A stretch of DNA of 64,000 nucleotides from a virus (lineage: Duplodnaviria; Heunggongvirae; Uroviricota; Caudoviricetes): IMG/VR virus record IMGVR_UViG_2721755721_000001. One strand, 5' to 3'. Shown one piece after another: positions 1 to 21,534 of this stretch (the stretch's first letter is position 1; each line of letters begins with the position of its first letter). Both the position numbers and the translations under genes were made by a program. The notes beneath the pieces were generated by a model that had not been told where the DNA came from, did not search any database, and saw nothing but the letters and a program-made list of their open reading frames with translations.

Positions 1-849
1 TTAGTCTAAATGTTGAATGTCTTTTAAGAAATCCATGGCGCGGATTCTTGATTGACCATTTATCAGGAAAATATAAGATGATAGTTCTCTTTCTGCAGTG
101 TCATTTTTCATTATTTCGTTTTCATTTTTGCGTAACTTAGTTGACTCTATAGTTTTTATCAGACTATTAATTTTTTCATCAAAACCGATAGGTTTTTTTG
201 TTAATGAAATCTTATTTTTTTCAATAGCGCGACGGATCTTTGCTAGAATTTTGTTGCGGATATTTTCAGGGACATTTTCTGAACTTGAGATAAAGTTATG
301 ATTGCCATTTTTTAATGCTTCATTAATTGCATCATAAGGAGATATATATAAATTACTAGGAGTATTATAGGCTGTTTTGGCGTCACCCAGTGTATTGTTC
401 ACAAAATCTGTGCTCTTAGAAATATAAACTACTCCAACTAGCCCCGAAAAATTCTCCCAGAAAACAGATTCAAGATTCTTGTTGTTTGCATTGACCGCTC
501 TTTTGGCAATGGTCTTTTGTTTATTTAGTTCATTTAAAGTTTTTCTTAGTTCAGAATTTATTGAATTTAATTTTTCTTCTGATTCTTTGTATTGTAAATC
601 AAGTTTGGCAATGCTTCCCTCCAATTCTTTTCGTAAGATTTTATTATTCTCTATAAATTTTTGGGAGTTTTCCATTGCAGTTTTTAATTTATTTAATTCA
701 ACTTCTTTTTTTGCAATTTCTTCTGATAAAAGTTCCTTTTGGTAAATTGGTCTTACTGTATAAAAATATCCAAAAATAGCAAATGCCACCAATACAAACT
801 GTGATACATGGCTAACTCGGCTCAAAAAAACATCAACTTTATTTGACAT
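1..849 (-). CDS. hypothetical protein, 282 aa; N-terminal transmembrane helix, long coiled-coil, C-terminal globular region; AT-rich cargo
   Basis: complete ORF (ATG at 847-849, TAA at 1-3); hydrophobic segment VSQFVLVAFAIFGYFYTV; Lys/Glu/Asn-rich heptad-like stretch; no family recognised. Confidence 0.6.
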   Translation of the reverse strand: MSNKVDVFLSRVSHVSQFVLVAFAIFGYFYTVRPIYQKELLSEEIAKKEVELNKLKTAMENSQKFIENNKILRKELEGSIAKLDLQYKESEEKLNSINSELRKTLNELNKQKTIAKRAVNANNKNLESVFWENFSGLVGVVYISKSTDFVNNTLGDAKTAYNTPSNLYISPYDAINEALKNGNHNFISSSENVPENIRNKILAKIRRAIEKNKISLTKKPIGFDEKINSLIKTIESTKLRKNENEIMKNDTAERELSSYIFLINGQSRIRAMDFLKDIQHLD

Positions 850-1210
850 AACGCCTCTATAAGATTCTCTTTTTATCTACAACATTATAATTTTTTAATG
901 AAAAAAATCATCTAAAAATTAGTTCAAAGCAATACGTTCAAACTGATATTGATGCTTAGGAGCTAATCGGTACGTATTGATGGTACAACAGAAAAGAACA
1001 ATAGAAAGCTTGGGGGCTGACGTTGCTACTGGCGCACATACCCATGTCGTACTAAAAGAGTTCATTTGATTTTATAACTATATCAGCCCGTTATTTTTAT
1101 GTTGATGCGAACAGCCCCGCACGCCTGCCCGCTTCGCTTAACAGACTGGTTTTCATGCACCTCATAAATCGTCTCAGAAGCCACCACACAAGGGCTTTCT
1201 CGTCAAAAAT

Positions 1211-1262
1211 GGTGCATAAGGTTCATGCGTTTTCATGCGCTATAGACATGCACTCATGCGCT
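1211..1262. repeat. cluster of TCATGCG / CATGCAC direct repeats at about 10-bp spacing
   Basis: TCATGCG at 1223, 1233, 1254 and CATGCAC at 1247, between ogr-like gene and the 282-aa gene. Confidence 0.35.
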
Positions 1263-1285
1263 CTCAGGCCAGCCAGGGAAAAGGT

Positions 1286-1311
1286 GTTAAAAATCCCGGT
1301 ACTCGACCGGG
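1286..1311 (-). terminator. putative intrinsic terminator after ogr-like gene
   Basis: hairpin CCCGGTCGAGTACCGGG then ATTTTTAA on minus strand, 23 nt past the ogr stop. Confidence 0.45.
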
Positions 1312-1333
1312 ATTACGTGGGCGTTTTTTCTAA

Positions 1334-1615
1334 TCAGACAGGAATCTGCTGACGGCTTGACAGTTTTGACGCGGAGCCATAGCGATTGAGCGTTTGCTGT
1401 TGTTTTACCGGGGGGTGTGATTTGTCTGGTTCCTGTTCATTGCGCCGGGGTTTCATGATTATCTTATCCACACTCTCCAGTGCCGTAAATGTGCAGGAAC
1501 ATTCCAGATTCTGGCACTGATACCACGAGCGTTTAACTGACGGAGCTTCATAGGCTGCTGTTCTGGCGTGTGCAACTGTACCGCATTCCGGACATTTAAG
1601 TGCCATTAAAATCAC
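1334..1615 (-). CDS. ogr: Ogr/Delta-family zinc-finger late transcription activator
   Basis: motifs CPECG...HART...YQCQNLECSCTF...ESV...KP match P2 Ogr / P4 Delta as recalled; true start may be internal Met at 1606. Confidence 0.8.
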   Translation of the reverse strand: MILMALKCPECGTVAHARTAAYEAPSVKRSWYQCQNLECSCTFTALESVDKIIMKPRRNEQEPDKSHPPVKQQQTLNRYGSASKLSSRQQIPV

Positions 1616-2163
1616 TCCTGTATATCGTTAATGTCATTCAGGCGTTGCTGAAAATGCAGATGTTGTGCCGGGGTGTAAGAGTCCTGGCAATCACGAATCA
1701 TCCCGGGGTCAGGTATCAAACCGGATTCATCCAGGATCTCACGATAATCCCCGGCAATTTCAGGCGGTGTTATTGCCAGCTGGCGAACCAGAGCACTGCG
1801 TAATATACGGGACGCAACGTCAACCCCTCCGCGCCCCTTCAGGAACGGAGCCAGTGCAGATGTCAGGGCTGCCCCATTCGCCTGCATAAAATTGCTGAGA
1901 GCGGCTTCTGTGCAGGCCTCCATCAGTAAATGCTGCGCGTAAATGCATTCGCGCGCAGCACAGTTAATTTGCCATTTCAGCACATCCAGACGTTCCCGCA
2001 GTAATTCGAGCTGTCGGGCATAATCTGCTGGTTTTTCTGTGGCAGCGAGGAGAGATGTTATCTGTTGTTCAACGGCTTTTCGGCTCTCACTATGTCCGGC
2101 CCACAGAATACGGGCATTCCGAAAACTGGTAAGTGCCTGGTCAGGCGTGCCTCGGGCCGTCAT
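1612..2163 (-). CDS. hypothetical helical protein, 183 aa (Psu-like by size/position only)
   Basis: ORF translationally coupled between upstream 247-aa ORF and ogr; no motif recognised. Confidence 0.45.
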   Translation of the reverse strand: MTARGTPDQALTSFRNARILWAGHSESRKAVEQQITSLLAATEKPADYARQLELLRERLDVLKWQINCAARECIYAQHLLMEACTEAALSNFMQANGAALTSALAPFLKGRGGVDVASRILRSALVRQLAITPPEIAGDYREILDESGLIPDPGMIRDCQDSYTPAQHLHFQQRLNDINDIQE

Positions 2164-2903
2164 ACTGCTTTCTCCTTCTCAGCGAGTTCCTGACGAACCT
2201 TAATTTTATGCATAGCTGCCGGAGAGAGTTGATTACTGAAATCCAGACGCGCCGCATAATCCGGGGCAACTCCCGCCAGTTTAAACACCGGGTCCTGCTC
2301 AGGCATCGCATCGTTAGCCAGAGCCGGTCTGGTGATATGTTTATGAATAAAGTCTTTCAGCACTGTGTCCGGGTCATTAACTGAATTCACCACACCCACA
2401 ACGGCACTGGCTTCCCGGCCCATTGTGGATTTAAGCAGGCTCAGCGTCTGAATAAGCGCTTTTCCATGCGACTGCATAAAATCCTCCCAGATTTGTTTTG
2501 CGCGAATATCCACAAGAATGTTATGCGCGTGGATATACTTTCCGGCTAATTCTGCAGCTTTCTGCGGCAAAAGTGCATTTTCGCTTTCCTGAGCCGCCAG
2601 CAGCTCATCAAAATCCTCAAGCGTTTCTCGTCCCAGCGCAATTTCCGTGCGCAGTTTTTTCATTTCCTTTGAGACCACGCCCTGACTTTCACGAAACAGC
2701 GTGCGCCACTCCTCATTCAGTGTGTTCGTCGTGGCTTCCATTTCAGCGCGACGCTGGCGGATTGTCGCAATATTATCCGCTGCCGCTTTCTGCTGACGAC
2801 GTGCTTCAAGCCATGCGTTTCTGGCTGTGTTCATGGTTTCCAGTGCCCGCTGCGTTACAGCCGGAAAAGTGGAAAGGTTGTTATTTACTGCGGTATTGTT
2901 CAT
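2160..2903 (-). CDS. hypothetical coiled-coil protein, 247 aa (Sid-like by size/position only)
   Basis: ORF downstream of iteron/promoter region and primase; predicted helical/coiled-coil; no motif recognised. Confidence 0.45.
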   Translation of the reverse strand: MNNTAVNNNLSTFPAVTQRALETMNTARNAWLEARRQQKAAADNIATIRQRRAEMEATTNTLNEEWRTLFRESQGVVSKEMKKLRTEIALGRETLEDFDELLAAQESENALLPQKAAELAGKYIHAHNILVDIRAKQIWEDFMQSHGKALIQTLSLLKSTMGREASAVVGVVNSVNDPDTVLKDFIHKHITRPALANDAMPEQDPVFKLAGVAPDYAARLDFSNQLSPAAMHKIKVRQELAEKEKAV

Positions 2904-2941
2904 GACTTCTCCTGTCGGGTTGGTTCGTTACGTCAATTGTG

Positions 2942-3269
2942 TCGTGGCTGACACAAGCACACTATCGGTGCTCAGTGTGTGGTGGCTGGCACAACGGGCG
3001 CTTGCGGTTATTCAGACGTGGCTATGAAAGCCAGCCAGATAAAAATGCCCTCTGTTTCAGTCTGCTTTATGTCCCTGATGCGGTGGAACAGGTGAAACAT
3101 GTGTTACAGCTTTGTTTTATAAGGCATTTATATACACTGCACCGGTGGAACATCGCGGGTAACAAGGTGAAACAGCGGATTGGCTGGCGTTACATCTGTT
3201 CCACCTCACTATTTCAGAAGGTGGAACAGGTTCAGCCCTGTAAAATACGGTTGTTCCACCTGTTTCACC
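2942..3269. repeat. iteron cluster resembling P4 ori/crr-type repeats
   Basis: GGTGGAACAGGTGAAACA at 3083-3100; GGTGGAACA at 3144 and 3220; GGTGAAACA at 3166; inverted copies TGTTCCACC at 3197 and 3252 and TGTTTCACC at 3261; GTGGCTGNCACAA at 2942 and 2981. Confidence 0.55.
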
Positions 3270-3303
3270 TGTTACCCTTAATAAATAAGACTCACGCAAA
3301 GCC

Positions 3304-5976
3304 TTAACCCGGCACCTCGCTGTTGAAGACATAGAGCCTGCGGGGATTCATCTCTGGCGGGCGAATGGTTGTCTGGAGTTTGCCATCAGTGGAGGGCAGC
3401 AGGTATCCACGATCTGCGCACAGACGCGCCACCTTGCGCGGGTCAAATCCCCTGCAGATTTCTTTCCAGCCGGACGGCATGACATAGAACGTAGTGACAG
3501 CTTCCGTGCCCTGCGCGGTACTGCCTTTCTCCACCCTTCGCCAGCCCACCATATTGCCGGGGCGGTTGCGCTCGTCATACCAGTCTGCAAAGCGGCTGTA
3601 CTGATTCGCGGTAAAGAAACTGCGAACCTGCTCCAGTGCGGCGATATCTTCCTGATTGGCGGTGTGCCCGCGATCTTTCAGCCATGCGTTCAGGCAGACG
3701 CGGGTTGCCCGCAGTGCTTCACCCTCAGGCCAGCCGGTGATACCCAGACGGGTTGCCAGTTCACCTGCCATCGCCACCAGTGCAAAGCGGTTCACAGCCC
3801 GGCCCACCTGATTGCCTGCATCTTTCGGAGTCAGGGCGGCAGCATATTCCTTCATCAGCGATTTTGCCTGTGCCGTTAGTCCGTTAAGATCAGCGGTCAG
3901 TGCTTTCAGCCACTCCCGGAACGGCGAACCGTAGTAGCAGGACGTGGCCCATTCAAGATGCTCTGCCAGAGCCTTGCCGCTGTCGAAGCCGTGCAGCTCC
4001 TCAAAAACGCCAAACTTCCCGGAATCGCTGGGGATCTGGATCATCCTGACTTCCATCCCGGCAAAAGTACGCTCACCGGCCTTTGCCGCATGTTCGGTCA
4101 GAGACAATTCGCCAGTTGAAAAGAACAACAGGCGCCACTGCTTACGGGTACGCAGCTCACCGTCCGTACCGGCACGGCCCTTGCCCTGACCGTTTGCCAG
4201 CATGTAGGCGATATTGCCTGCCTCGCGTCCGTCAACTTCCCGGATCTCATCAAGCATCATGGCGGCATCGTTGCGGCGGCTGGCGCATCCCTCCAGTGCG
4301 TTGCCGGTGGCCCGCCATGTCTGCCAGTAGTCAGGCCCGCCGCAGACGGAGGTTGCTGCTTTCATGGTGGTGGTCTTACCGTCTGTCGATTCCCCTTTGA
4401 GGTGGTAGCCGCCGCCGTCCATACCAACCAGCCGTAACAGTGGTGCAGCAAAGGCCAGGCTGACAGCAAATGCCACGCGGGAGTTGCCGGTACAGTAGCG
4501 GGATACATGCTCCCGCCATTCCTCTGTTGTGCCCGACACGCGGAAATCACGCCCCTGCACGGAAGTGGTCTGGAGAATGACACCCTCTGCACCTTCACCG
4601 CTGACCTCATCCTGCAGGACGTAAACCTGACCATGCCAGCCAGTACGACTGACGCAGGTCACGCGGCGTTCCGGTTTACACAGTGAGATATATTCCATCA
4701 GGCGTGCGCGTGCCTCACCGGTGGTGCTGATATAAGACAGCCCGTTAACCAGCAGTACCCGGCGCAGTTCCTCACCACTGCCGCTCAGCATTTCCATCGG
4801 CATCGCCCAGCGGCGACACTCACCCCACGTATCTTCCCATTCCAGCAGTCGTCCGAAGTTACCGCCATCGGCATCGCAGGTGATTGCCGTCACGCGCAGC
4901 GGGCTGCATATTTTGACGTTCTGGATCTCCGTCTCACCGTTGCGCTGTACCTGCTTTTCATACCAGAGATATTCCTGGGTAAGACGGAACCCGTGCGGCA
5001 GTTGCGTGCGGCTTTCCCCGCAGAGTACCAGACCGTTGCGAAAGGCTTCACGGGCACGGGTAATACCGTGCTCCCGATGAAAGTCATTCCAGTCAGCCTT
5101 AATCTCTTCTGGTGGCAGCGTCATCCAGCCGCCAACAGCTTTTGCCGCCCGTTCAGCAAAGGCTCTGCCGGGATTCTCACCCCCGTCCTGAAAATCGTTA
5201 TCACCGGCGATGATAATTTTTACCTCAGGCCAGCGTGCCCGCAGCGACTGCGCCACATTGGGCAGGTTGCCCGCAGATATGGCAGCCACTACGCATCCGG
5301 CAGTGAGCTGGCTTACCGTCAGCGCCGTAGCGTAACCTTCGGTAATCACCACCTGTATCGGTGGTTCAGACGGTAACGGGCTGAGCGACACAAACGCGCC
5401 TTTCATCGTGCTGCCGGGCAGTATGCTTTTTTCACCCGTCGGGGCGATAAGCTGTGCACCGGTCACGGCTCCGGTGTTGGTCGTGAGTGGTAACAGCAGG
5501 GAACCGGCAGGAAAATCCTTACCGCTGATATGCTGTACGCTTCCGGTCAGAGAGGCCGGGTATCCGGCGAACCCTTTTCCTGTCAGATAGGCGCTTTCTC
5601 CCGTGTGGCTCTCTTTCATCAGCGCCGCCACGGTAAGACCCATGTCGCGTTTAGGGGCTTTTTGTCTGGCAGGCTTAACAGGCAGTTCCTGCATATCCGG
5701 CACATTAAGCACCTGCGCCACCTCCTGCGCAGCCTTTCTGACGTTGTAACCGGTTACGAGCTTAACCAGATCCAGACCGTCACCATTGCCACACTGGCTG
5801 CAGATCCACGTCCCGCGCCCGTCAAGGTCATCAAGGCGAAAACGATCCTTGCCCCCACATTTCGGGCAGGGACCGTGCCTGCCGTTTTCAGGTACATCAA
5901 TACGCAGCATCTGCAGAATAACGGGCCATTTCCCCCGTGCGGCGGCTGAAACCTGCGTAACCGTCTGTATTGTCAT
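3304..5976 (-). CDS. DNA primase/helicase, P4 alpha-like
   Basis: 890 aa; N-terminal zinc motif CPKCGG...CSQCG; acidic primase-like cluster IIIAGDNDFQDGGENPG; P-loop GESTDGKTT in C-terminal half. Confidence 0.85.
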   Translation of the reverse strand: MTIQTVTQVSAAARGKWPVILQMLRIDVPENGRHGPCPKCGGKDRFRLDDLDGRGTWICSQCGNGDGLDLVKLVTGYNVRKAAQEVAQVLNVPDMQELPVKPARQKAPKRDMGLTVAALMKESHTGESAYLTGKGFAGYPASLTGSVQHISGKDFPAGSLLLPLTTNTGAVTGAQLIAPTGEKSILPGSTMKGAFVSLSPLPSEPPIQVVITEGYATALTVSQLTAGCVVAAISAGNLPNVAQSLRARWPEVKIIIAGDNDFQDGGENPGRAFAERAAKAVGGWMTLPPEEIKADWNDFHREHGITRAREAFRNGLVLCGESRTQLPHGFRLTQEYLWYEKQVQRNGETEIQNVKICSPLRVTAITCDADGGNFGRLLEWEDTWGECRRWAMPMEMLSGSGEELRRVLLVNGLSYISTTGEARARLMEYISLCKPERRVTCVSRTGWHGQVYVLQDEVSGEGAEGVILQTTSVQGRDFRVSGTTEEWREHVSRYCTGNSRVAFAVSLAFAAPLLRLVGMDGGGYHLKGESTDGKTTTMKAATSVCGGPDYWQTWRATGNALEGCASRRNDAAMMLDEIREVDGREAGNIAYMLANGQGKGRAGTDGELRTRKQWRLLFFSTGELSLTEHAAKAGERTFAGMEVRMIQIPSDSGKFGVFEELHGFDSGKALAEHLEWATSCYYGSPFREWLKALTADLNGLTAQAKSLMKEYAAALTPKDAGNQVGRAVNRFALVAMAGELATRLGITGWPEGEALRATRVCLNAWLKDRGHTANQEDIAALEQVRSFFTANQYSRFADWYDERNRPGNMVGWRRVEKGSTAQGTEAVTTFYVMPSGWKEICRGFDPRKVARLCADRGYLLPSTDGKLQTTIRPPEMNPRRLYVFNSEVPG

Positions 5977-6356
5977 ACTTCCCCCTCATACAACGTCACA
6001 CCGGTACTGCAGAAGTCATCAAATGCCGCCGGAAGCGTGCGGTACATCTCCGCCATCACTTCACAGCCGCGCGCGGTCAGTACCGGCGGCGCGGTCAGCA
6101 GTGACGGCTCCAGCATGTCAGTCAGCAGTGCCAGCGCGGCAGCGGCGCCCTGCACTTCGCCGTACTCGTTAATCAGTACGCACTCGATATGCAGCGCAAT
6201 GGCCATTTCAATACGCTCCACCGTCAGGCTGTGCGGACCATACTGATCACTGCCAGTTTCGTTCAGCATTTTCTGCCGCCATGCTGAAGCAATAGCCCGC
6301 CGGTAAAGCGCGGTGGTCATTTCTACCGGGAAAATGGAAACCTGCGGCTGGTTCAT
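5973..6356 (-). CDS. hypothetical protein, 127 aa
   Basis: ORF overlapping primase start by 4 nt in satellite early operon. Confidence 0.45.
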   Translation of the reverse strand: MNQPQVSIFPVEMTTALYRRAIASAWRQKMLNETGSDQYGPHSLTVERIEMAIALHIECVLINEYGEVQGAAAALALLTDMLEPSLLTAPPVLTARGCEVMAEMYRTLPAAFDDFCSTGVTLYEGEV

Positions 6357-6637
6357 CTGGCACCTCCTTCAATCAGTGCGCAGCTGTGTGCAATATCCGT
6401 CAAATCTGCCAGCAGGTACTCCATCAGCGCGGCGACACCAGGCGCACAGCCTGCGTCCAGTGCTCCGGCCTGAGACGGGTATTCAGAAAAGAGAAGCTGG
6501 AGCATGTCGCAGGCATTTCTTGCGCGGGTCAGCTTTCCGAAACTGTCCTCTGACAACCCATAGGCAAAAGCACCGGTATTGTGTTTTTCAGGCAAAGTGT
6601 GGCCCTGAGCACCGTTGTGCCCGTTTGAAATATTCAT
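6353..6637 (-). CDS. hypothetical protein, 94 aa
   Basis: ORF translationally coupled within the same operon. Confidence 0.4.
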   Translation of the reverse strand: MNISNGHNGAQGHTLPEKHNTGAFAYGLSEDSFGKLTRARNACDMLQLLFSEYPSQAGALDAGCAPGVAALMEYLLADLTDIAHSCALIEGGAR

Positions 6638-6668
6638 CGTGGATTACTCCGTTTTCAGCGGTATTTTG

Positions 6669-7058
6669 TCAGAGAAACTTTGAATAGTGACCGTCGTCAG
6701 GCTCAGCAGAACGCCGTATGCTACGCTCCCGCCAGCGGATAAATAGCACAGACGGATGCAGTGTCAGCGGGCCGGAACCACTACCGCCAGCAGGAGCTGG
6801 TGCAGGCTTCAAGAGCGGTACATCAAACAGGCGCGTATACCGCTGTTCAAACCATGCCAGAGGGCAGGAAGAAAGCTTGTTGTCGCTGTCATGACGTATC
6901 AGCACTTCACAGCTGAATTCAGGATTAACCAGCGCCACAGAGGGCGAGGCTTCTATTAATCGGATAATCGTGACCGTCCAGCCACGTTCATGCTGCCAGC
7001 GTTCGCCGGGGTGCGGATAATTACGCATGTTCACCTCCGCAGGGAATGCGCCCGGCAA
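6669..7058 (-). CDS. hypothetical protein, 129 aa (start uncertain)
   Basis: ORF in satellite early operon; alternative internal start MRNYPHP. Confidence 0.4.
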   Translation of the reverse strand: MPGAFPAEVNMRNYPHPGERWQHERGWTVTIIRLIEASPSVALVNPEFSCEVLIRHDSDNKLSSCPLAWFEQRYTRLFDVPLLKPAPAPAGGSGSGPLTLHPSVLFIRWRERSIRRSAEPDDGHYSKFL

Positions 7059-7251
7059 AGCTCAGTACATAGTCCGGGGCAAGTCTGCGCCGCGCTGATC
7101 GTTCGTTATCTGCGGTGATCCTTAACATCACAGGACGGGCATTGCGTTGACTGCGGTTGATCGCCGCAAATAACCAGGTACACTTCTGTTTAGCCATCTT
7201 CGTTACCTCATATAACGTGCTGGTCAGACGCCTCGGTGCTGCTGCAAACAC
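7021..7251 (-). CDS. hypothetical small basic protein (likely starts at MAKQKC, position 7197)
   Basis: ORF immediately downstream of the palindromic operator region. Confidence 0.35.
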   Translation of the reverse strand: MFAAAPRRLTSTLYEVTKMAKQKCTWLFAAINRSQRNARPVMLRITADNERSARRRLAPDYVLSFAGRIPCGGEHA

Positions 7252-7279
7252 TCCGGGGCGTTGCTATTTTGTTTTTCTG

Positions 7280-7300
7280 TGTGTAATGTGTCATTACACA
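7280..7300. promoter_or_regulatory. perfect 9-3-9 palindrome TGTGTAATG-TGT-CATTACACA, putative operator
   Basis: located 14 bp upstream of the plus-strand RHH-like ORF and upstream of the minus-strand primase operon; ATTACA...TGTAAT half-sites recur at 7308-7326. Confidence 0.5.
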
Positions 7301-7313
7301 TAAATACATTACA

Positions 7314-7508
7314 ATGGGTGTAATTGACGTGTCAACACACAAAAATGAAAGACGTGGGAATCCGCCATTCCAGTTCCGACTTGACCCTGAACTGCGTGAA
7401 CTGATGGAACAAGCACAACAGCAGGATGGCGATGAATCGCTAGCGGCTTGGATCAAGCGCATTCTACGCAAAGAGTTACAAAGCCGAGGTTTAGAACCAA
7501 AGAATTGA
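7314..7508 (+). CDS. putative ribbon-helix-helix DNA-binding protein, 64 aa
   Basis: FQFRLDPELRELMEQA...SLAAWIKRILRKEL fits strand-helix-helix pattern; only plus-strand gene in the module; followed by hairpin GGGGAG-loop-CTCCCC at 7517-7540. Confidence 0.45.
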   Translation: MGVIDVSTHKNERRGNPPFQFRLDPELRELMEQAQQQDGDESLAAWIKRILRKELQSRGLEPKN

Positions 7509-7557
7509 TTAATACGTTGGGGAGGCTTTTTTCTCCCCAGCTTTGTTAATATTGTCA

Positions 7558-7773
7558 TTACACTACTTCCTCCAATCCTGCTGATTGAGCTTTAACCCAC
7601 TGCCTAATTTCTTGTGCATCGTAAACAGATACCCGTTTTGAAATGCGTATAGATTTGGGAAATTCAGGATTGTTCTTTTCCCAGCGCCAGAGAGTAACCG
7701 TACTTATTTGCAAAAAGTCAGCAGTAGCTCGTGGGCGGGCATGTCCAGTGATAGGATAAGTTTTTAATGTCAT
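7558..7773 (-). CDS. alpA: AlpA-family helix-turn-helix regulator
   Basis: 71 aa with AlpA-like pattern (LQISTVTLWRWEKNNPEFP...VYDAQEIRQW). Confidence 0.7.
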   Translation of the reverse strand: MTLKTYPITGHARPRATADFLQISTVTLWRWEKNNPEFPKSIRISKRVSVYDAQEIRQWVKAQSAGLEEVV

Positions 7774-7875
7774 GAAATTACCTGCCGTATTATGTAATGA
7801 ACACGGCAGATACTATGGGGATATCAAAATGCTGTGAAGGTAGTGTAATCAACTCTACCTGTAGATTGTTTCAGT

Positions 7876-8757
7876 CTACCCCTTTTGTTTTAATCCCGCA
7901 TGATTAACCGCTAATCGTAATTTTCTTAAGATTTCTTGTTCATTAGTGATAAATATTGGAGGTAGCTCTCCTAAATGTTTAATTATGGCGTTAGTCCACT
8001 TTTCAGGACTTATCTCTTTTCTTTCACCACGACATTCGCTTGGGTATTTTGCTAATATATATATGGCTGCATTTAATAACCCCTCCCTATTTTTTGCATG
8101 ATGCTCAGCAGTGTTATTTAATCGCTTGGGGATTTTAGGTTCAGATGAAATTCTTTTCGTAAGTAAACTTGGCATAGGAATTCCAGTTTTTACTGATTTC
8201 CATATTAACTCTAAATCTCTTCGCATGATAAGAAGATCTTCAAATGGAATCTTAATTACCTTATTTCCTTCATATGAGGCCGTTGCCATCAAAACATTAT
8301 CTCGTATTTTTACCGGTTTAAGCCTGAATTCATAATCTGGATCTATAGCTAATCCATTTTTTATGTCACTTATCATATCATCGGCGTACCAAATACCACA
8401 GGCAAATCCTATAATTTGAAGCCCATTTTCAAAATGTTCAAAGGAATCATCTTTAAGGTCATACCATATTGTTGAAAATTCCATCTCTAGTGATTGATTA
8501 GTTAATACGGGATGAATTAAGTCAATTTCCATTTTCTGATTTTTATTGAGGAAATTAACATTAAATCTAACTGCAAGTCCATCCGCCTTGAATGCGATAT
8601 TAAAAGCGCCTATTTCGTATAGATGTAATAAATCATCAATCTCGCATTCTAATAGTCTTGAAGCGCGTTCAAATGAACAATATTCTAATGGTGGTATTTT
8701 TTTGTCAATCCATAGATTTCCTAAGAATATAGTTTCATTCTCTGTTGAATGCTGCAT
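7876..8757 (-). CDS. hypothetical protein, 293 aa; AT-rich cargo between int and alpA
   Basis: complete ORF starting 30 bp after the int stop; GC well below flanking genes; no family recognised. Confidence 0.6.
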   Translation of the reverse strand: MQHSTENETIFLGNLWIDKKIPPLEYCSFERASRLLECEIDDLLHLYEIGAFNIAFKADGLAVRFNVNFLNKNQKMEIDLIHPVLTNQSLEMEFSTIWYDLKDDSFEHFENGLQIIGFACGIWYADDMISDIKNGLAIDPDYEFRLKPVKIRDNVLMATASYEGNKVIKIPFEDLLIMRRDLELIWKSVKTGIPMPSLLTKRISSEPKIPKRLNNTAEHHAKNREGLLNAAIYILAKYPSECRGERKEISPEKWTNAIIKHLGELPPIFITNEQEILRKLRLAVNHAGLKQKG

Positions 8758-8787
8758 TATGACCTCTGTTTTAAATTATAAGAGTAT

Positions 8788-10122
8788 TTAATTGATAATG
8801 TTAATACCTGATAAGTCATAAGGAGCATGGAATTCGTCCTTATTTAGTTCCAGATAATTAGACCACCATTGCATCATTCTGCGGCGTTCCTGCATGTGCT
8901 GCGCAAGATGCACATATGCTGCCCGCACTTCGTTTCTTTCTTGGTGACTCATCTGCCGTTCAACTGCATCGCGTGACCAGAGTCCTGATTCGGTCAGTGC
9001 AGAGCAGGCCATCGCCCTGAACCCATGCAAGCAAACATCAGTTTGAGTGTCGTAACCCATCGTTCGCAGTGCTTTATTAACTGTGTTTTCGCTCATCGGT
9101 TTATATGGGTTGCTGTCACCGGGAAAAACCAGCAGATATTCACCACTGATTTTCCTTATATCCTCCAGTACCCCGATAGCCTGACTAGATAGCGGGACAT
9201 AATGAGCAGCCCCCATCTTTGCACCCCGATCTGAGAATTTAACCCCTGCGATCTCTTCACGTTGTCCTGGTATCGTCCATAGCCCATTTTCAATGTCGAT
9301 CTCCTCCCATCTGGCATGTCGTAGTTCGCTGGATCGCACAAAAGTGTGCAGGGAAAAGAGAACTGCTAGGCGAGTCAATGGTCTTCCCGTGTAACTTCTC
9401 GTTTTCGCTAACAGTTCAGGTAAACGTTCGAGAGGTAGTGCGGGGCGATGTCGTACTTTGGGGGCCGTAATTGCACCTTTTAGATCGTGGGCAGGGTTGT
9501 AATCGACAATTCCACGTTGCACGGCATAACGGAAGATGCTCGTCATAGTGGTTTTTACACGGCTCGTTGTGGCACCAATTCCTTTCTCAGTCATCTCAAC
9601 CAGCATCGGCATCAAGTCACGGGTTTTGAGCGTATCGATAGGCTTTGAACCGATGGCAGGAAAGAGGTGGTTTTCCATTTCTCGGAGAATTTTTTTACGG
9701 GTGATCTCTTTCCACTCAGGATGCCCCATCGTTCCACTATGCCACTCTCTGGCAACACTCTCGAACGTGGGGGAAATTGGGTCTTCCTTTTTGGGTTTCT
9801 TTGCTTCGCGAGGATCACGACCATCGGCTAGTAGTTGCCTGGCTTCATCACGCCGTTTCCGCGCTGTTGCAAGTGAGACATCTGGGTAGACCCCTAATGC
9901 CAATGTCACTTGTTTTCCATCAAAACGATAATTCATACGCCAGTATTTTCCACCAGTCTTTCGTACCAGTAGATACAAACTCCCTCCATCGGTAAGTTTG
10001 TAATCATTGGTCTTCGGCTTGGCGTTTTCTATCTGTTTGGGGGAAAGCACATTAATGGCCATATCTGTACTCATTTTGGTAAATTGATGGTATCTGCATA
10101 TCGAACTGGGGAATACCATCAC
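8788..10122 (-). CDS. int: tyrosine integrase, P4-type
   Basis: 444 aa; N-terminal arm-binding-like region (LTDGGSLYLLVRKTGGKYWRMNYRFDGK); C-terminal catalytic region with HGFRAMACSAL and late Tyr. Confidence 0.9.
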   Translation of the reverse strand: MMVFPSSICRYHQFTKMSTDMAINVLSPKQIENAKPKTNDYKLTDGGSLYLLVRKTGGKYWRMNYRFDGKQVTLALGVYPDVSLATARKRRDEARQLLADGRDPREAKKPKKEDPISPTFESVAREWHSGTMGHPEWKEITRKKILREMENHLFPAIGSKPIDTLKTRDLMPMLVEMTEKGIGATTSRVKTTMTSIFRYAVQRGIVDYNPAHDLKGAITAPKVRHRPALPLERLPELLAKTRSYTGRPLTRLAVLFSLHTFVRSSELRHARWEEIDIENGLWTIPGQREEIAGVKFSDRGAKMGAAHYVPLSSQAIGVLEDIRKISGEYLLVFPGDSNPYKPMSENTVNKALRTMGYDTQTDVCLHGFRAMACSALTESGLWSRDAVERQMSHQERNEVRAAYVHLAQHMQERRRMMQWWSNYLELNKDEFHAPYDLSGINIIN

Positions 10123-10334
10123 TTATACCATCACGAGGTTGTAATGTCATGAAATTAACTGAAATGAAAATCAGGCCGATTCGGTGATAACTTACTGTTT
10201 TTTTAAGTGGTTATGTAATGAAGTGAAATGTAGAGAAAGGTCTTTAAAGTGTCCCCTGCAGACATCTACTTGAGGCAGCAGGGGATTGATTGGAATGGTG
10301 TTTTTTAGGTGTGAGAAATATTTTACCCGCTATT

Positions 10335-10535
10335 TTACCCATTGGCGCGGCTTAAGAGCTTATTTTTGAATTCACAATGGTCACGATATAACCATCTTGC
10401 TCGACCGTGGATAACTTTGGCTTTTGGCAGGTCGCCGGACTTAATCCGGTCGTAGATGAAGGTTTTACCAAAGCCAGTATCGGCCATGATGAATTTCAAA
10501 TCAACCAGTGAATCAGGTTGTAGTTCGTGTTGCAT
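10335..10535 (-). CDS. AlpA/Xis-family excisionase-like HTH protein
   Basis: 66 aa, FIMADTGFGKTFIYDRIKSGDLPKAKVIHGRARWLYRD pattern; immediately upstream of int. Confidence 0.6.
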   Translation of the reverse strand: MQHELQPDSLVDLKFIMADTGFGKTFIYDRIKSGDLPKAKVIHGRARWLYRDHCEFKNKLLSRANG

Positions 10536-10577
10536 GAGTGCTATCTCCGAATAGGGAATCGAACCTGCAAATCAGGC

Positions 10578-10600
10578 AAGAAAAAACCGCCATCAGGCGG
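10578..10600 (-). terminator. intrinsic terminator between early-left genes and xis-like gene
   Basis: minus strand CCGCC-TGAT-GGCGG then TTTTTTCTT. Confidence 0.55.
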
Positions 10601-10666
10601 CTTGGTGTTCTTTCAGTTCTTCAATTCGAATATTGGTTACATTGTTTTCATATATGAATAAATAAA

Positions 10667-10879
10667 TTAGCTTTTTTCGTTGCCTTCGCGTTCTTTATTA
10701 ATTTTGACAAAATCGTTTTTACCACGCTCTCCAAATGCGTCTTTAGAGTCGTTGTATCCGCAATCGCAGCACACATAATCATCAGACCATCCACGCATTG
10801 TTTTTTCTTTTGCAATATTTCCAGAACCGCATTTTGGACAAGACATATCACTACCTCCAAAGCATGAGAGAGATGACAA
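10667..10879 (-). CDS. small zinc-ribbon protein
   Basis: CPKCGSG...CCDCGY four-Cys motif; start may be internal MSCPKCG. Confidence 0.5.
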   Translation of the reverse strand: MSSLSCFGGSDMSCPKCGSGNIAKEKTMRGWSDDYVCCDCGYNDSKDAFGERGKNDFVKINKEREGNEKS

Positions 10880-10942
10880 CGTAACATTGATTGGAGATTA
10901 ACAATAGATTGCTGATGTAAAAGATATGTATAAGCTTAGCTA

Positions 10943-11317
10943 TCAAAGGGGAGGCTCTGGTAGCGGCATCCAGTGTGACGGTTTCCACGACGCACCAGGA
11001 ATTATCCACCCATCATTAGCGTCAGGATGCCCCGGGATGTAAGTCGCCCATTTCATTCGCCAGTCACCTTTCCTGTCAAACTCCCTGGCAACAAGAACGG
11101 CTGTTTTGGTATCCGGCATTCGCTCACTACAGCTTATCCAACCATCAGGAGTTACCGGAGAGTTGCCGGGTTCTTTAATGTGCAAGCGAGGCTCACCATC
11201 TTTTGGCTCAGGCCACTGGCGCTCCATGTTGATCTTCAATTTATCTTCCATAGCAGCGGTAATTTCAGCATCGCTGATGCCAGCACGGCGCTGTGCATCC
11301 CACAACAGGAAATGCAT
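10943..11317 (-). CDS. DUF551-like phage protein
   Basis: Trp-rich C-terminal pattern as recalled for DUF551; in frame with the upstream ORF across a TAG. Confidence 0.5.
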   Translation of the reverse strand: MHFLLWDAQRRAGISDAEITAAMEDKLKINMERQWPEPKDGEPRLHIKEPGNSPVTPDGWISCSERMPDTKTAVLVAREFDRKGDWRMKWATYIPGHPDANDGWIIPGASWKPSHWMPLPEPPL

Positions 11318-20595: not shown

Positions 20596-21534
20596 ATGAC
20601 AAATACAGCAAAAATACTCAACTTCGGCAGAGGTAACTTTGCCGAACAGGAGCGTAATGTGGCAGATCTCGATGATGGTTACGCCAGACTATCAAATATG
20701 CTGCTTGAGGCTTATTCAGGCGCAGATCTGACCAAGCGACAGTTTAAAGTGCTGCTTGCCATTCTGCGTAAAACCTATGGGTGGAATAAACCAATGGACA
20801 GAATCACCGATTCTCAACTTAGCGAGATTACAAAGTTACCCGTCAAACGGTGCAATGAAGCCAAGTTAGAACTCGTCAGAATGAATATTATCAAGCAGCA
20901 AGGCGGCATGTTTGGACCAAATAAAAACACCTCAGAATGGTGCATCCCTCAAAACGAGGGAGGTTCCCCTAAAATGAGGGACATCCCTCAAAACGAGGGA
21001 AAATCCCCTAAAACGAGGGATAAAACATCCCTCAAATTAGGGGATTGCTATCCCTCAAAACAGGGGGACACAAAAGACACTATTACAAAAGAAAAAAGAA
21101 AAGATTATTCGTCCGAGAATTCTGGCGAATCCTCTGACCAGCCAGAAAACGATCTTTCTGTGGTTAAACCGGATGCTGCAATTCAGAGCGGCAGCAAGTG
21201 GGGGACAGCAGAAGACCTGACCGCCGCAGAGTGGATGTTTGACATGGTGAAGACCATCGCGCCATCAGCCAGAAAACCGAATTTTGCAGGGTGGGCTAAC
21301 GATATCCGCCTGATGCGTGAACGTGACGGACGTAACCACCGCGACATGTGCGTGCTGTTCCGCTGGGCATGCCAGGACAACTTCTGGTCCGGTAACGTGC
21401 TTAGCCCGGCCAAACTCCGCGACAAGTGGACCCAGCTCGAAATCAACCGTAACAAGCAACAGGCAGGCGTGACAGCCAGCAAACCAAAACTCGACCTGAC
21501 AAACACTGACTGGATTTACGGGGTGGATTTATGA
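20596..21534 (+). CDS. O: replication initiator O
   Basis: near-identical to lambda O as recalled, with a 13-aa insertion in the iteron-binding region. Confidence 0.95.
   Translation: MTNTAKILNFGRGNFAEQERNVADLDDGYARLSNMLLEAYSGADLTKRQFKVLLAILRKTYGWNKPMDRITDSQLSEITKLPVKRCNEAKLELVRMNIIKQQGGMFGPNKNTSEWCIPQNEGGSPKMRDIPQNEGKSPKTRDKTSLKLGDCYPSKQGDTKDTITKEKRKDYSSENSGESSDQPENDLSVVKPDAAIQSGSKWGTAEDLTAAEWMFDMVKTIAPSARKPNFAGWANDIRLMRERDGRNHRDMCVLFRWACQDNFWSGNVLSPAKLRDKWTQLEINRNKQQAGVTASKPKLDLTNTDWIYGVDL
20944..21069. repeat. ori-lambda-type iterons within O (six units)
   Basis: six 18-19-bp repeats of ATCCCTCAAAACGAGGGA type, versus four recalled for lambda. Confidence 0.8.

What the first reader, a model, noticed from the sequence alone, without database searches (positions are those of the whole stretch)
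7876..8757. AT-rich 293-aa cargo gene in the int-alpA hotspot of the P4/PICI-like satellite
The satellite module has the order int, one cargo ORF, alpA, early operon, primase. The cargo ORF starts only 30 bp after the int stop, has markedly lower GC than int or alpA, and has no motif I recognise. The int-proximal interval of P4-like satellites and PICIs is a documented hotspot for interchangeable anti-phage systems, so this is a prime candidate for a new single-protein defence or helper-interference factor.
Basis: partly seen in the sequence, partly recalled or inferred. Interest (0 to 1): 0.72.

Follow-up and report, generated by a model that had tools for sequence, protein, structure and literature searches.

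The report
Swappable unknown-family gene between int and alpA
The AT-rich 293-aa gene is real and belongs to a large, completely unannotated protein family that sits just upstream of the satellite master regulator alpA and is exchanged as a cassette between otherwise near-identical phage satellites, so it looks like a polymorphic phage-recognition factor, but nothing yet shows that it is a defence gene.

Summary
A 293-aa ORF lies on the minus strand at 7876-8757, 30 bp after the int stop. Its GC is 0.33, against 0.48 for int and 0.42 for alpA, and it matches no Pfam, NCBIfam, PADLOC or PDB entry. The element is a P4-like satellite at argW in E. coli.

The documented P4 defence hotspot is psu-int, which here lies at the other end of the element.

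The int-alpA interval is nevertheless a true exchange hotspot. Satellites with flanks 99% identical carry unalignable genes there, and breakpoints fall at the int stop and about 40 nt before the alpA start.

The occupants are almost always alleles of one family, with at least 565 clusters at 50% identity. It has an acidic winged-helix-like N-domain, a hypervariable acidic beta domain and a conserved basic four-helix C-domain. These modules shuffle independently of Int and AlpA.

In 13 of 13 lineages the gene is followed by alpA. Close relatives show purifying selection (dN/dS 0.1-0.25). Its hairpins and promoter-like site suggest a separate transcription unit.

No known defence system was seen in the slot, and no effector domain was found. 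My best reading, at moderate confidence, is a lysogen-expressed, binding-type phage-recognition cassette. It would either interfere with phages or gate alpA induction.

The parts
7876..8757 (-). The 293-aa ORF (identical to WP_073569615.1). It has three modules: an N-terminal winged-helix-like module (about residues 20-69), a hypervariable acidic all-beta module (about 95-178) and a basic four-helix C-domain (215-292). The C-domain carries the motif E-R/H-x-A-x-N-R-E ... P-x-E-C ... W.
   Evidence: ORF. Family. AlphaFold2 model with pLDDT 84. Domain charges and conservation. dN/dS. Accession.
8775..8804 (-). Sigma-70 promoter-like site (TTAACA-18-TATAAT, 11 of 12 matches) overlapping the int stop codon, just upstream of the ORF. 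A GAGG Shine-Dalgarno lies at 8766-8763.
   Evidence: This is a consensus match only. The number of such sites in the region is not above the shuffle expectation.
7838..7880 (-). Two hairpins right after the stop codon: GTAGA-N9-TCTAC (7879-7861) and AGGTAG-N11-CTACCT (7860-7838). They occupy the position where relatives carry a clear intrinsic terminator.
   Evidence: The best example is L045: AGGCACAGTA-TCAT-TACTGTGCCT-TTTTT.
7782..7838 (-). alpA promoter-like site (TTCACA at 7838-7833, TAGTAT at 7815-7810) and leader inverted repeat CTGCCGT-N14-ACGGCAG (7809-7782), whose 3' arm abuts the Shine-Dalgarno. Homology with the sibling satellite L014 resumes at about 7811, so this marks the right boundary of the exchanged cassette.
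7558..7773 (-). alpA (PF05930), the constant downstream neighbour of the family.
8788..10122 (-). P4-type tyrosine integrase (Arm-DNA-bind_3, Phage_int_M, Phage_integrase). RefSeq annotates the start at 10062. Its stop codon is the left boundary of the exchanged cassette.
1334..5976 (-). The rest of the satellite backbone that identifies it as P4-like: primase (3304-5976), Sid-like gene (2160-2903), Psu (1612-2163) and Delta (1334-1615).

Best explanation
The ORF is a functional accessory gene of a large, unnamed protein family. Its home is the slot directly upstream of alpA, usually directly downstream of a P4-type integrase, in primase-carrying satellites of Enterobacterales.

Shown:
- It is probably a self-contained, moron-like unit. 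It has a promoter-like site, a Shine-Dalgarno, the ORF, terminator-like hairpins and persistently low GC.
- Homologous recombination replaces it wholesale, or replaces its N-terminal plus middle part, at two fixed boundaries. One is the int stop. The other is either about 40 nt upstream of the alpA start or the junction with the C-domain.
- Its domains do not co-vary with Int or AlpA.

Inferred mechanism:
- It is expressed from the integrated satellite, insulated from alpA.
- It acts without enzymatic activity, as a binding protein.
- The hypervariable acidic N/middle module recognises a phage-encoded protein, from a competitor or from the helper.
- The conserved basic C-domain couples that recognition to a conserved host or satellite target.
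- My preferred outcome is interference with the recognised phage, that is binding-type exclusion in the logic of the Tai proteins. The polymorphism would then be the footprint of an arms race.
For: Real gene under purifying selection:
- dN/dS is 0.19 and 0.11.
- The gene is present in 66 of 5426 complete E. coli genomes at 95-100% identity.

Family:
- It has 565 clusters at 50% identity with E<=1e-3.
- Every source name read is 'hypothetical'.
- None of 100 members gave a meaningful Pfam hit.

Fixed slot:
- Among 13 independent lineages, 13 are followed by an AlpA-family ORF and 11 are preceded by int.

Cassette exchange:
- L045 and L048 have flanks 99.2% and 98.8% identical while the gene itself is unalignable.
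- L002 and L017 share Int at 90%, AlpA at 73% and the C-domain at 73%, but the N-domain and middle domain at only 15% each. At nucleotide level, homology stops at the int stop and resumes at the C-domain.
- L017 and L043 share Int at 31% and AlpA at 35%, yet the gene is about 70% identical throughout, and only the gene plus its hairpin align.
- No domain correlates with Int or AlpA; Spearman is at most 0.30.

Architecture (model):
- Mean identity across the family is 16% in the middle domain, 41% in the N-domain and 29% in the C-domain.
- The middle domain has a mean net charge of -12. The C-domain has a pI of about 8.9.
- Conserved polar residues are R224, E225, C242 and W254.

Moron-like features:
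- There is an 11/12 promoter match and there are terminator hairpins.
- GC is below that of the neighbouring int, or of the primase where int is not adjacent, in all 11 loci.

Dispensable for the host and the satellite:
- IS1 insertions and deletions occur in the gene.
- A frameshifted copy exists in L038.
- Functional satellites lack the gene.

Literature:
- Tested accessory loci of P4-like satellites and PICIs often turn out to be anti-phage (PMC9122126; PMC11364771).
Against: - There is no homology to any known defence protein or effector domain.
- Foldseek against PDB and BFVD gave nothing significant.
- A defence hotspot normally holds unrelated systems. Here one family dominates the slot, which fits a dedicated satellite function as well.
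- The strict adjacency to alpA, even where int is not adjacent (L026, L028), hints at a link with the AlpA switch.
- The exchanged segment includes the upstream half of the alpA promoter region.
- Promoter and terminator are consensus or structure predictions only. No expression data are available.
- Most loci were found by homology to the gene. Only the int-based samples are free of ascertainment bias.
Confidence: 0.38

Rival explanations
1. The gene is a helper-sensing gate of the AlpA switch, functionally analogous to Stl and to the immunity region of lambdoid phages. The protein keeps alpA silent, or licenses its induction, until its variable module binds a specific helper-phage protein. 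Swapping the cassette would change which helper induces the satellite.
For: - The gene is always immediately upstream of alpA. The spacer is about 100-113 nt in most lineages and 156-207 nt in two, and the adjacency holds even when int is not adjacent.
- The exchanged segment reaches to about 40 nt before the alpA ATG, so it carries the upstream part of the alpA promoter region with it.
- The N-domain has winged-helix topology and aligns in register with AlpA (hhalign P=0.002).
- Hyperdivergence between sister elements parallels Stl.
- The literature states that a global repressor of Gram-negative PICIs is unknown and that alpA is induced by an unidentified helper factor (PMC6092414).
Against: - EcCIMP1, which is induced by its helper, has only a small unrelated ORF in the slot. 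EcCICFT073 appears to have nothing between int and alpA. L029 has an empty slot.
- The putative recognition helix is acidic, with an invariant Asp42. The N-domain is net negative in 62% of members.
- Nearly the same C-domain (60-68% identity) serves satellites whose AlpA proteins (22-34% identity) and alpA leaders are unrelated. Neither a specific AlpA partner nor a specific operator is therefore indicated.
- The gene is co-directional with alpA, not divergent like stl.
Confidence: 0.3
2. The gene is an accessory factor of site-specific recombination. It would be a large recombination directionality factor or an integrase partner, co-expressed with int.
For: - The gene lies 3-177 nt downstream of int, on the same strand, in 11 of 13 lineages.
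- The N-domain topology is that of Xis/TorI/AlpA-type excisionases.
- In the window-versus-L014 comparison, int and the gene both lie in the divergent segment.
Against: - Domain identities do not track Int. With Int at 90% the N-domain is 15%; with Int at 31% the whole gene is about 70%.
- Two alleles of about 26% identity serve the same argW site with Int at 77%.
- Lineages exist without an adjacent int.
- AlpA-type proteins already supply the excision function in such elements (PMC11773190).
- The N-domain is acidic.
Confidence: 0.08
3. The gene is an anti-defence or establishment factor. It would be an acidic, DNA-mimic-like or inhibitor protein that protects the incoming satellite or its helper from host restriction or defence.
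For: - The proteins are acidic overall, with a median pI of 5.5 and a middle-domain net charge of about -12.
- The sequence is polymorphic and the gene is accessory.
- The gene lies in the first transcription unit next to int.
Against: - There is no similarity to ArdA, Ocr or other known inhibitors.
- The acidity is moderate.
- No data exist on the timing of expression.
Confidence: 0.1

Closest known systems
P4-like psu-int defence hotspot (Rousset et al. 2022, PMC9122126; de Sousa and Rocha, PMC8628076)
   Same: Both are fixed slots in a satellite, flanked by conserved core genes, where AT-rich accessory cassettes are replaced by recombination between otherwise similar elements.
   Different: The location differs: this slot is int-alpA, not psu-int next to cos. 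In this element the psu/delta-distal region is a separate variable locus (ORF 1-849). The occupants here are almost always alleles of one unannotated family with shuffled domains, not unrelated known defence systems. Anti-phage activity is untested.
SaPI Stl / PICI Rpr master repressors
   Same: Both are encoded between int and the regulatory/replication module. Both are hyperdivergent between sister elements. Both pair a helix-turn-helix-type N-terminus with a variable partner-recognition part.
   Different: There is no sequence or detectable fold similarity. The gene is co-directional with alpA rather than divergent. The N-domain is acidic. Satellites without the gene exist. DNA binding and helper-protein binding are untested.
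Tai (tail assembly inhibition) proteins of PICIs and P4-like satellites (PMC11364771)
   Same: Both are single, non-enzymatic satellite-encoded proteins with no hit in PADLOC or DefenseFinder, located in an accessory slot of the satellite. In both cases the proposed logic is action by binding a phage component.
   Different: There is no homology, though this was tested only indirectly, through the family searches. The slot differs: Tai lies next to pri. No phenotype is known here.
Prophage morons (independent promoter-gene-terminator units of deviant GC)
   Same: The gene has a promoter-like site, its own Shine-Dalgarno, terminator hairpins and markedly lower GC than its neighbours, and it is inserted between two functional modules.
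   Different: The signals are only predicted. In many relatives the gene starts 3-20 nt after int and is probably co-transcribed with it.
AlpA/Xis/TorI (HTH_17, MerR-like winged helix)
   Same: The predicted beta-alpha-alpha-hairpin topology of residues 26-69 matches. A profile alignment falls in the correct register (P=0.002).
   Different: No Pfam match was found in 100 members. The recognition-helix positions are acidic (C-E-x-[ED]-D), not basic. The domain is part of a protein of about 300 aa.

Membership tests
P4-like satellite (core set int, psu, delta, sid, alpA, ash/epsilon, alpha) | Integrase, Psu, Delta, AlpA and alpha primase are all present in one cluster. | tested here: met
   Pfam hits: integrase domains, PF05930 AlpA, Toprim+DUF927+Zn ribbon, Psu at 3e-44 and Ogr_Delta at 7.5e-16. 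The RefSeq annotation agrees.
P4-like satellite (core set int, psu, delta, sid, alpA, ash/epsilon, alpha) | Sid and Ash/epsilon are present, and the gene order is int-psu-delta-sid-alpA-epsilon-alpha. | tested here: inconclusive
   A Sid-like ORF at 2160-2903 gives only a weak Psu-family hit (1.8e-9). No Ash hit was sought. The order here is int-X-alpA...alpha-sid-psu-delta, which differs from P4.
Documented P4 anti-phage hotspot | The locus lies between psu and int, adjacent to cos. | tested here: not met
   The gene lies between int and alpA. The hotspot definition comes from PMC9122126 and PMC13586616.
Documented P4 anti-phage hotspot | The slot content is swapped between related satellites for different, often known, defence systems. 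| tested here: not met
   Exchange is real. The occupants, however, are alleles of the same family, one unrelated unknown protein, or nothing. No significant PADLOC hit was found.
Known anti-phage defence proteins (PADLOC-DB 2.0) | A significant match to a defence-protein model. | tested here: not met
   There were zero families at E<=10 for the window protein and none for 6 other alleles. The one exception is a noise-level PDC-S31 hit at E 0.002.
HTH_17 / AlpA / excisionase winged helix | A Pfam-level sequence match and a basic recognition helix and wing. | tested here: not met
   None of 100 members matched. hhalign gave only P=0.002. Asp42 is invariant and the helix is acidic. The topology is compatible.
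Stl-like satellite master repressor | Encoded between int and the lytic/regulatory module, and hyperdivergent between elements. | tested here: met
Stl-like satellite master repressor | Binds operator DNA at the lytic promoter and is released by a helper-phage protein. | not testable with these tools
   This needs EMSA or reporter assays and interaction assays. Indirect evidence is mixed: the C-domain is shared across unrelated alpA leaders.
Stl-like satellite master repressor | Transcribed divergently from the operon it controls, and required for quiescence. | tested here: not met
   The gene is co-directional with alpA. Satellites without it exist.
Moron (autonomous transcription unit in a prophage) | Its own promoter and terminator, and a base composition deviating from its neighbours. 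| tested here: inconclusive
   The 11/12 promoter match is not above shuffle expectation. Terminator hairpins are conserved across alleles. The GC deviation is clear. Transcription was not measured.

The most novel reading that the evidence does not exclude
The family is the missing helper-sensing component of Gram-negative satellites. It would be a polymorphic, exchangeable specificity cassette placed directly in front of alpA. Its variable module would bind a helper-phage protein, and its conserved C-domain would control alpA expression or AlpA action. Swapping the cassette would re-programme which phage induces the satellite. This would answer the question, open since 2018, of how alpA is coupled to the helper.
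Probability: 0.25. Interest if true: 0.85.

Novelty: new variant of a known kind. Interest (0 to 1): 0.62.

Why it matters
Satellites with this slot are common. The yicC-site lineage alone is present in 393 of 5426 complete E. coli genomes, and the argW lineage in about 80.

The dominant occupant of the slot is a protein family with hundreds of sequence clusters. It has no Pfam model, no name and no known fold.

Its pattern combines three features: a fixed position, whole-cassette and domain-level exchange between near-identical backbones, and a hypervariable central domain between conserved ends. This is the signature of a specificity determinant in a phage-satellite-host conflict.

If it is an anti-phage factor, it defines a second, previously unlisted hotspot and a new single-protein system. 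If it gates alpA, it explains how Gram-negative satellites sense their helpers.

Either way it is directly testable. Natural allele pairs on 99%-identical backbones are available for the experiment.

Tried and rejected
- Sequence families. Pfam, NCBIfam, PADLOC and PHROGs on the window protein gave nothing meaningful. Pfam on 100 family members gave only scattered noise.
- Solved structures by sequence. The single protein, the full-family profile and a C-domain profile gave nothing. The one C-domain 'hit' (3k21) aligns to a His-tag/TEV linker and is an artefact.
- Domain fusions. A C-domain profile search for fusions to known domains returned only short unannotated fragments.
- yfjH of K-12 CP4-57, which lies in the same interval, proved unrelated and is on the opposite strand.
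- Rfam scan of 1-11000 for a P4 CI-like RNA found nothing.
- tblastn against 50,697 phage records found no match.
- Literature. A search for an accession of the same family (WP_001164861) found nothing. No paper read describes a gene family in the int-alpA interval.
- A conserved 'GGTA...TACC' operator downstream of the gene was considered. It was rejected in favour of an intrinsic terminator, because the stems vary with compensatory changes and are followed by T-runs.
- 'Same int lineage lacking the gene' looked like evidence of swapping, but these cases turned out to be IS1-mediated deletions.
- The IMG/VR hits are mostly prophage predictions from isolate genomes and do not show packaging.

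Full report
THE OBSERVATION

The window carries a 293-aa ORF on the minus strand at 7876-8757. Its ATG lies 30 bp downstream of the stop codon of a P4-type tyrosine integrase and is preceded by a GAGG Shine-Dalgarno. It is followed after 102 bp by alpA (PF05930), then by an Icd-like gene, a DUF5375 gene and a Toprim/DUF927 primase. Further on lie a Sid-like gene, Psu and Delta, so the element is a P4-like satellite, although its gene order differs from that of P4.

Near-identical copies in complete E. coli genomes show that the element sits at tRNA-Arg argW. In the window, and in some other strains, a lambdoid prophage whose torI gene abuts the satellite integrase lies between the satellite and the tRNA.

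The gene has GC 0.333 (GC3 0.245). This compares with 0.481 for int, 0.421 for alpA and 0.56-0.59 for the early operon and primase. It has no hit in Pfam, NCBIfam, PADLOC or the PDB sequence set.

IS IT A GENE?

Yes. Against a strain whose copy differs at 14 of 882 nt, dN/dS is 0.19. Against a 65%-identical homologue it is 0.11. Both values are comparable to the neighbouring core genes.

The exact protein is WP_073569615.1. Its 90% cluster has 468 members, from Escherichia, Salmonella and Klebsiella, and all are named 'hypothetical protein'. The gene occurs in 66 of 5426 complete E. coli genomes.

A profile search of 1.84 billion representative proteins found 565 clusters at E<=1e-3 and 176 at E<=1e-10, nearly all 260-380 aa long. 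None of 100 diverse members has a meaningful Pfam match.

ARCHITECTURE

With a 100-sequence alignment AlphaFold2 gives a confident model (pLDDT 84). Its parts are:
- residues 26-69: a strand, two helices and a beta hairpin, which is the topology of Xis/AlpA/MerR-type winged helices;
- residues 72-84: a helix;
- residues 95-178: an all-beta domain;
- residues 179-191: a helix;
- residues 196-214: a low-confidence linker;
- residues 215-292: a helical C-terminal domain.

Mean pairwise identity across the family is 41% in the N-domain, 16% in the middle domain and 29% in the C-domain.

The N-domain aligns in register with AlpA proteins only weakly (hhalign P=0.002). Its 'recognition helix' is acidic, with consensus C-E-V-[ED]-D-L-L-H, and Asp42 is invariant. 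The middle domain carries a mean net charge of -12. The C-domain is basic, with a pI of about 8.9. The C-domain holds the conserved polar residues of the family: E218, R224 (90%), E225, P239, C242 (83%) and W254.

Foldseek against PDB and BFVD gave no significant match for either model. Profile searches of the PDB gave nothing real. No fusion of the C-domain to a known domain was found.

CONTEXT IS THE STRONGEST EVIDENCE

I examined thirteen mutually divergent lineages of the family. They came from encoding contigs, GTDB genomes, IMG/VR and E. coli RefSeq. In all 13 the gene is followed on the same strand by an AlpA-family ORF. In 11 it is preceded within 3-177 nt by a P4-type integrase. The two exceptions (L026, L028) have other genes upstream but keep alpA downstream. 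The elements are always small primase-bearing satellites with varied hijacking modules.

In every locus the gene has lower GC than the adjacent int, or than the primase where int is not adjacent. Directly after its stop codon there is a hairpin. In several alleles this is a textbook intrinsic terminator, for example L045 with AGGCACAGTA-TCAT-TACTGTGCCT-TTTTT. In the window there are two weaker hairpins. In the window an 11/12 sigma-70 consensus match overlaps the int stop. This is a consensus match only, and the count of such sites is not above shuffle expectation. In other lineages the gene starts 3-20 nt after int and is probably co-transcribed with it.

IS IT SWAPPED?

Among genomes with the same int lineage at argW, those lacking the gene are IS1-mediated deletions, not swaps. 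At a slightly larger distance, however, the slot is clearly a recombination hotspot.

- Window versus sibling satellite L014. Int is 77% identical at protein level and AlpA 88-89%. The early operon aligns at 89% nucleotide identity. The slot proteins are only about 26% identical. Nucleotide homology stops about 56 nt before the int stop and resumes 38 nt upstream of the alpA ATG.
- yicC-site satellites. An int-based, and therefore unbiased, search found this lineage in 393 of 5426 E. coli genomes. L045 and L048 are 99.2% and 98.8% identical on the two flanks, yet unalignable from the start of the slot gene to 43 nt before alpA.
- Domain-level mosaicism. L002 and L017 share Int at 90%, AlpA at 73% and the C-domain at 73%, but the N-domain and middle domain at only 15% each, and homology resumes exactly at the C-domain boundary. 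L017 and L043 share Int at 31% and AlpA at 35%, yet the gene is about 70% identical throughout, and only the gene plus its hairpin align at nucleotide level.
- No domain of the protein correlates with Int or AlpA divergence; Spearman is at most 0.30.

WHAT OCCUPIES THE SLOT?

The unbiased samples gave the following.
- yicC: three full family alleles (L002, L045, L048); one allele with the family N and middle domains but a different C-domain (L046); and one unrelated 216-aa protein with no family (L047).
- argW: the window allele (66 genomes), the L014 allele (10 genomes) and an empty 619-bp interval in L029.
- Literature and K-12: in EcCICFT073 the gene fused downstream of alpA is called 'ORF3', which suggests nothing lies between int and alpA; EcCIMP1 has a small unrelated ORF there; CP4-57 has yfjH, which is unrelated and on the opposite strand.

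No known defence system was seen in the slot, and none of the alleles scanned matches PADLOC significantly.

COMPARISON WITH WHAT IS DOCUMENTED

The published P4 hotspot is psu-int, next to cos. In this element that corresponds to the delta-distal end. There the window has an AT-rich 282-aa ORF of unknown family (1-849), and sibling satellites carry other genes.

PICI immune loci are reported at the element ends and next to pri. [quoted passage not shown] None of the papers I read describes this family or cassette exchange at int-alpA.

For Gram-negative PICIs the literature states two open points: whether a global repressor exists is unclear, and the helper factor that induces alpA is unidentified.

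INTERPRETATION

Shown:
- a real, purifying-selected accessory gene;
- a large unannotated family;
- a fixed slot upstream of alpA;
- cassette and domain exchange at defined boundaries;
- independence from Int and AlpA divergence;
- a non-enzymatic-looking three-module architecture with a hypervariable acidic centre.

Inferred:
- expression from the integrated satellite, insulated from alpA;
- recognition of a variable, presumably phage-encoded, partner by the N/middle module;
- coupling to a conserved partner by the C-domain.

I rank the readings as follows.
- Binding-type phage interference or defence: 0.38. It fits the moron-like unit, the hotspot dynamics, the dispensability and the precedent of satellite accessory loci.
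- Helper-sensing gate of the AlpA switch: 0.30. It fits the invariable adjacency to alpA and the inclusion of the upstream alpA promoter region in the cassette. It is weakened by functional satellites that lack the gene, by the acidic 'recognition helix', and by one C-domain type serving unrelated alpA leaders.
- Anti-defence or establishment factor: 0.10.
- Recombination accessory factor: 0.08. It is disfavoured by the lack of co-variation with Int.

VERDICT

Its interpretation is partly supported. The slot is a hotspot and the gene is an exchangeable accessory cassette. It is not the documented hotspot, it is not swapped for known defence systems, and defence itself is unproven.

The finding is a new variant of a known kind: a previously undescribed satellite hotspot dominated by one novel polymorphic protein family. 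It is of good but not exceptional interest, and natural isogenic allele pairs make it readily testable.

Noticed in passing
window 10211-10222, 10142-10153 (upstream of int) and 7790-7801, 7765-7776 (alpA leader/start), all minus strand: The 12-mer TTCAT[GT]ACAT[AT]A occurs exactly four times in the 64-kb window, against 0.015 expected from shuffles. Two copies lie before int and two before or over the start of alpA. It also lies upstream of int in L014, L009 and L016, which have different slot alleles. It is a candidate shared operator (AlpA?) of P_int and P_alpA.
   Followed up: partly
window 7782-7809 (minus strand); equivalent positions in L002, L006, L008, L018, L026, L045-L048: Nearly every satellite lineage examined has an inverted repeat in the alpA leader whose 3' arm overlaps or abuts the Shine-Dalgarno. 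Examples are CTGCCGT-N14-ACGGCAG here, CCCGTAAC-N24-GTTACGGG at yicC and GCAGTTACC-N16-GGTAACTGC in L026. The structure is conserved although the sequence is not, which suggests RNA-level or operator control of alpA.
   Followed up: partly
window 1-849 (minus strand): A 282-aa ORF with GC 0.30 and no Pfam or PADLOC hit lies beyond delta, at the end of the satellite that corresponds to the published psu-int (cos-proximal) hotspot. Sibling satellites carry different genes there: a portal-like protein plus DUF4062, or other hypotheticals. This looks like the element's classical cargo locus.
   Followed up: partly
window 10335-10535 and rightwards (about 10.3-60 kb): A lambdoid prophage (torI/xis, exo/bet-type recombination genes, cI-like repressor) is integrated in tandem with the satellite at argW. 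This is the same arrangement as PICI EcCIMP1 with its helper Kapi1 in E. coli MP1 (PMC11773190). It is a possible helper or competitor for this satellite.
   Followed up: no
E. coli genomes NZ_CP069707, NZ_CP119006 (IS1 inside the gene); L011, L012, L013 and ETEC1739/1722 (deletions): IS1 is inserted in the gene in two genomes. In at least five others IS1-associated deletions remove the gene and most of the satellite but leave int. The AT-rich gene appears to be an IS1 target and is dispensable to the host.
   Followed up: yes
window 7314-7508 (plus strand): A small divergent ORF annotated as YlcI/YnfO family lies between alpA and the Icd-like gene, followed by a strong terminator-like hairpin at 7516-7541. 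Its role in the switch region is unknown.
   Followed up: no
L027 (Logan SRR32277962 contig), gene at 6001-6804: A short family member lies on a contig that also carries a phage antiterminator Q and an SLT lysozyme-like gene. It may be a satellite embedded in, or adjacent to, a prophage.
   Followed up: no
L046:4376-5299 and several members of alignment A3: Some family members keep the N and middle domains but carry a different, unrelated C-terminal domain (for example ...KQMRLIVALLKRIGLTDSDL...TLIDWLRKGG). The output module is therefore exchangeable too.
   Followed up: partly
L045:4356-5321: This allele gives a weak PADLOC hit to the candidate single-gene system PDC-S31 (E 0.002, residues 183-266). 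No other allele does, so it is probably noise.
   Followed up: no
window 20943-21020: Two tandem 39-nt repeats (CATCCCTCAAAACGAGGGA...) lie in the prophage region. They may be iteron-like or regulatory repeats.
   Followed up: no
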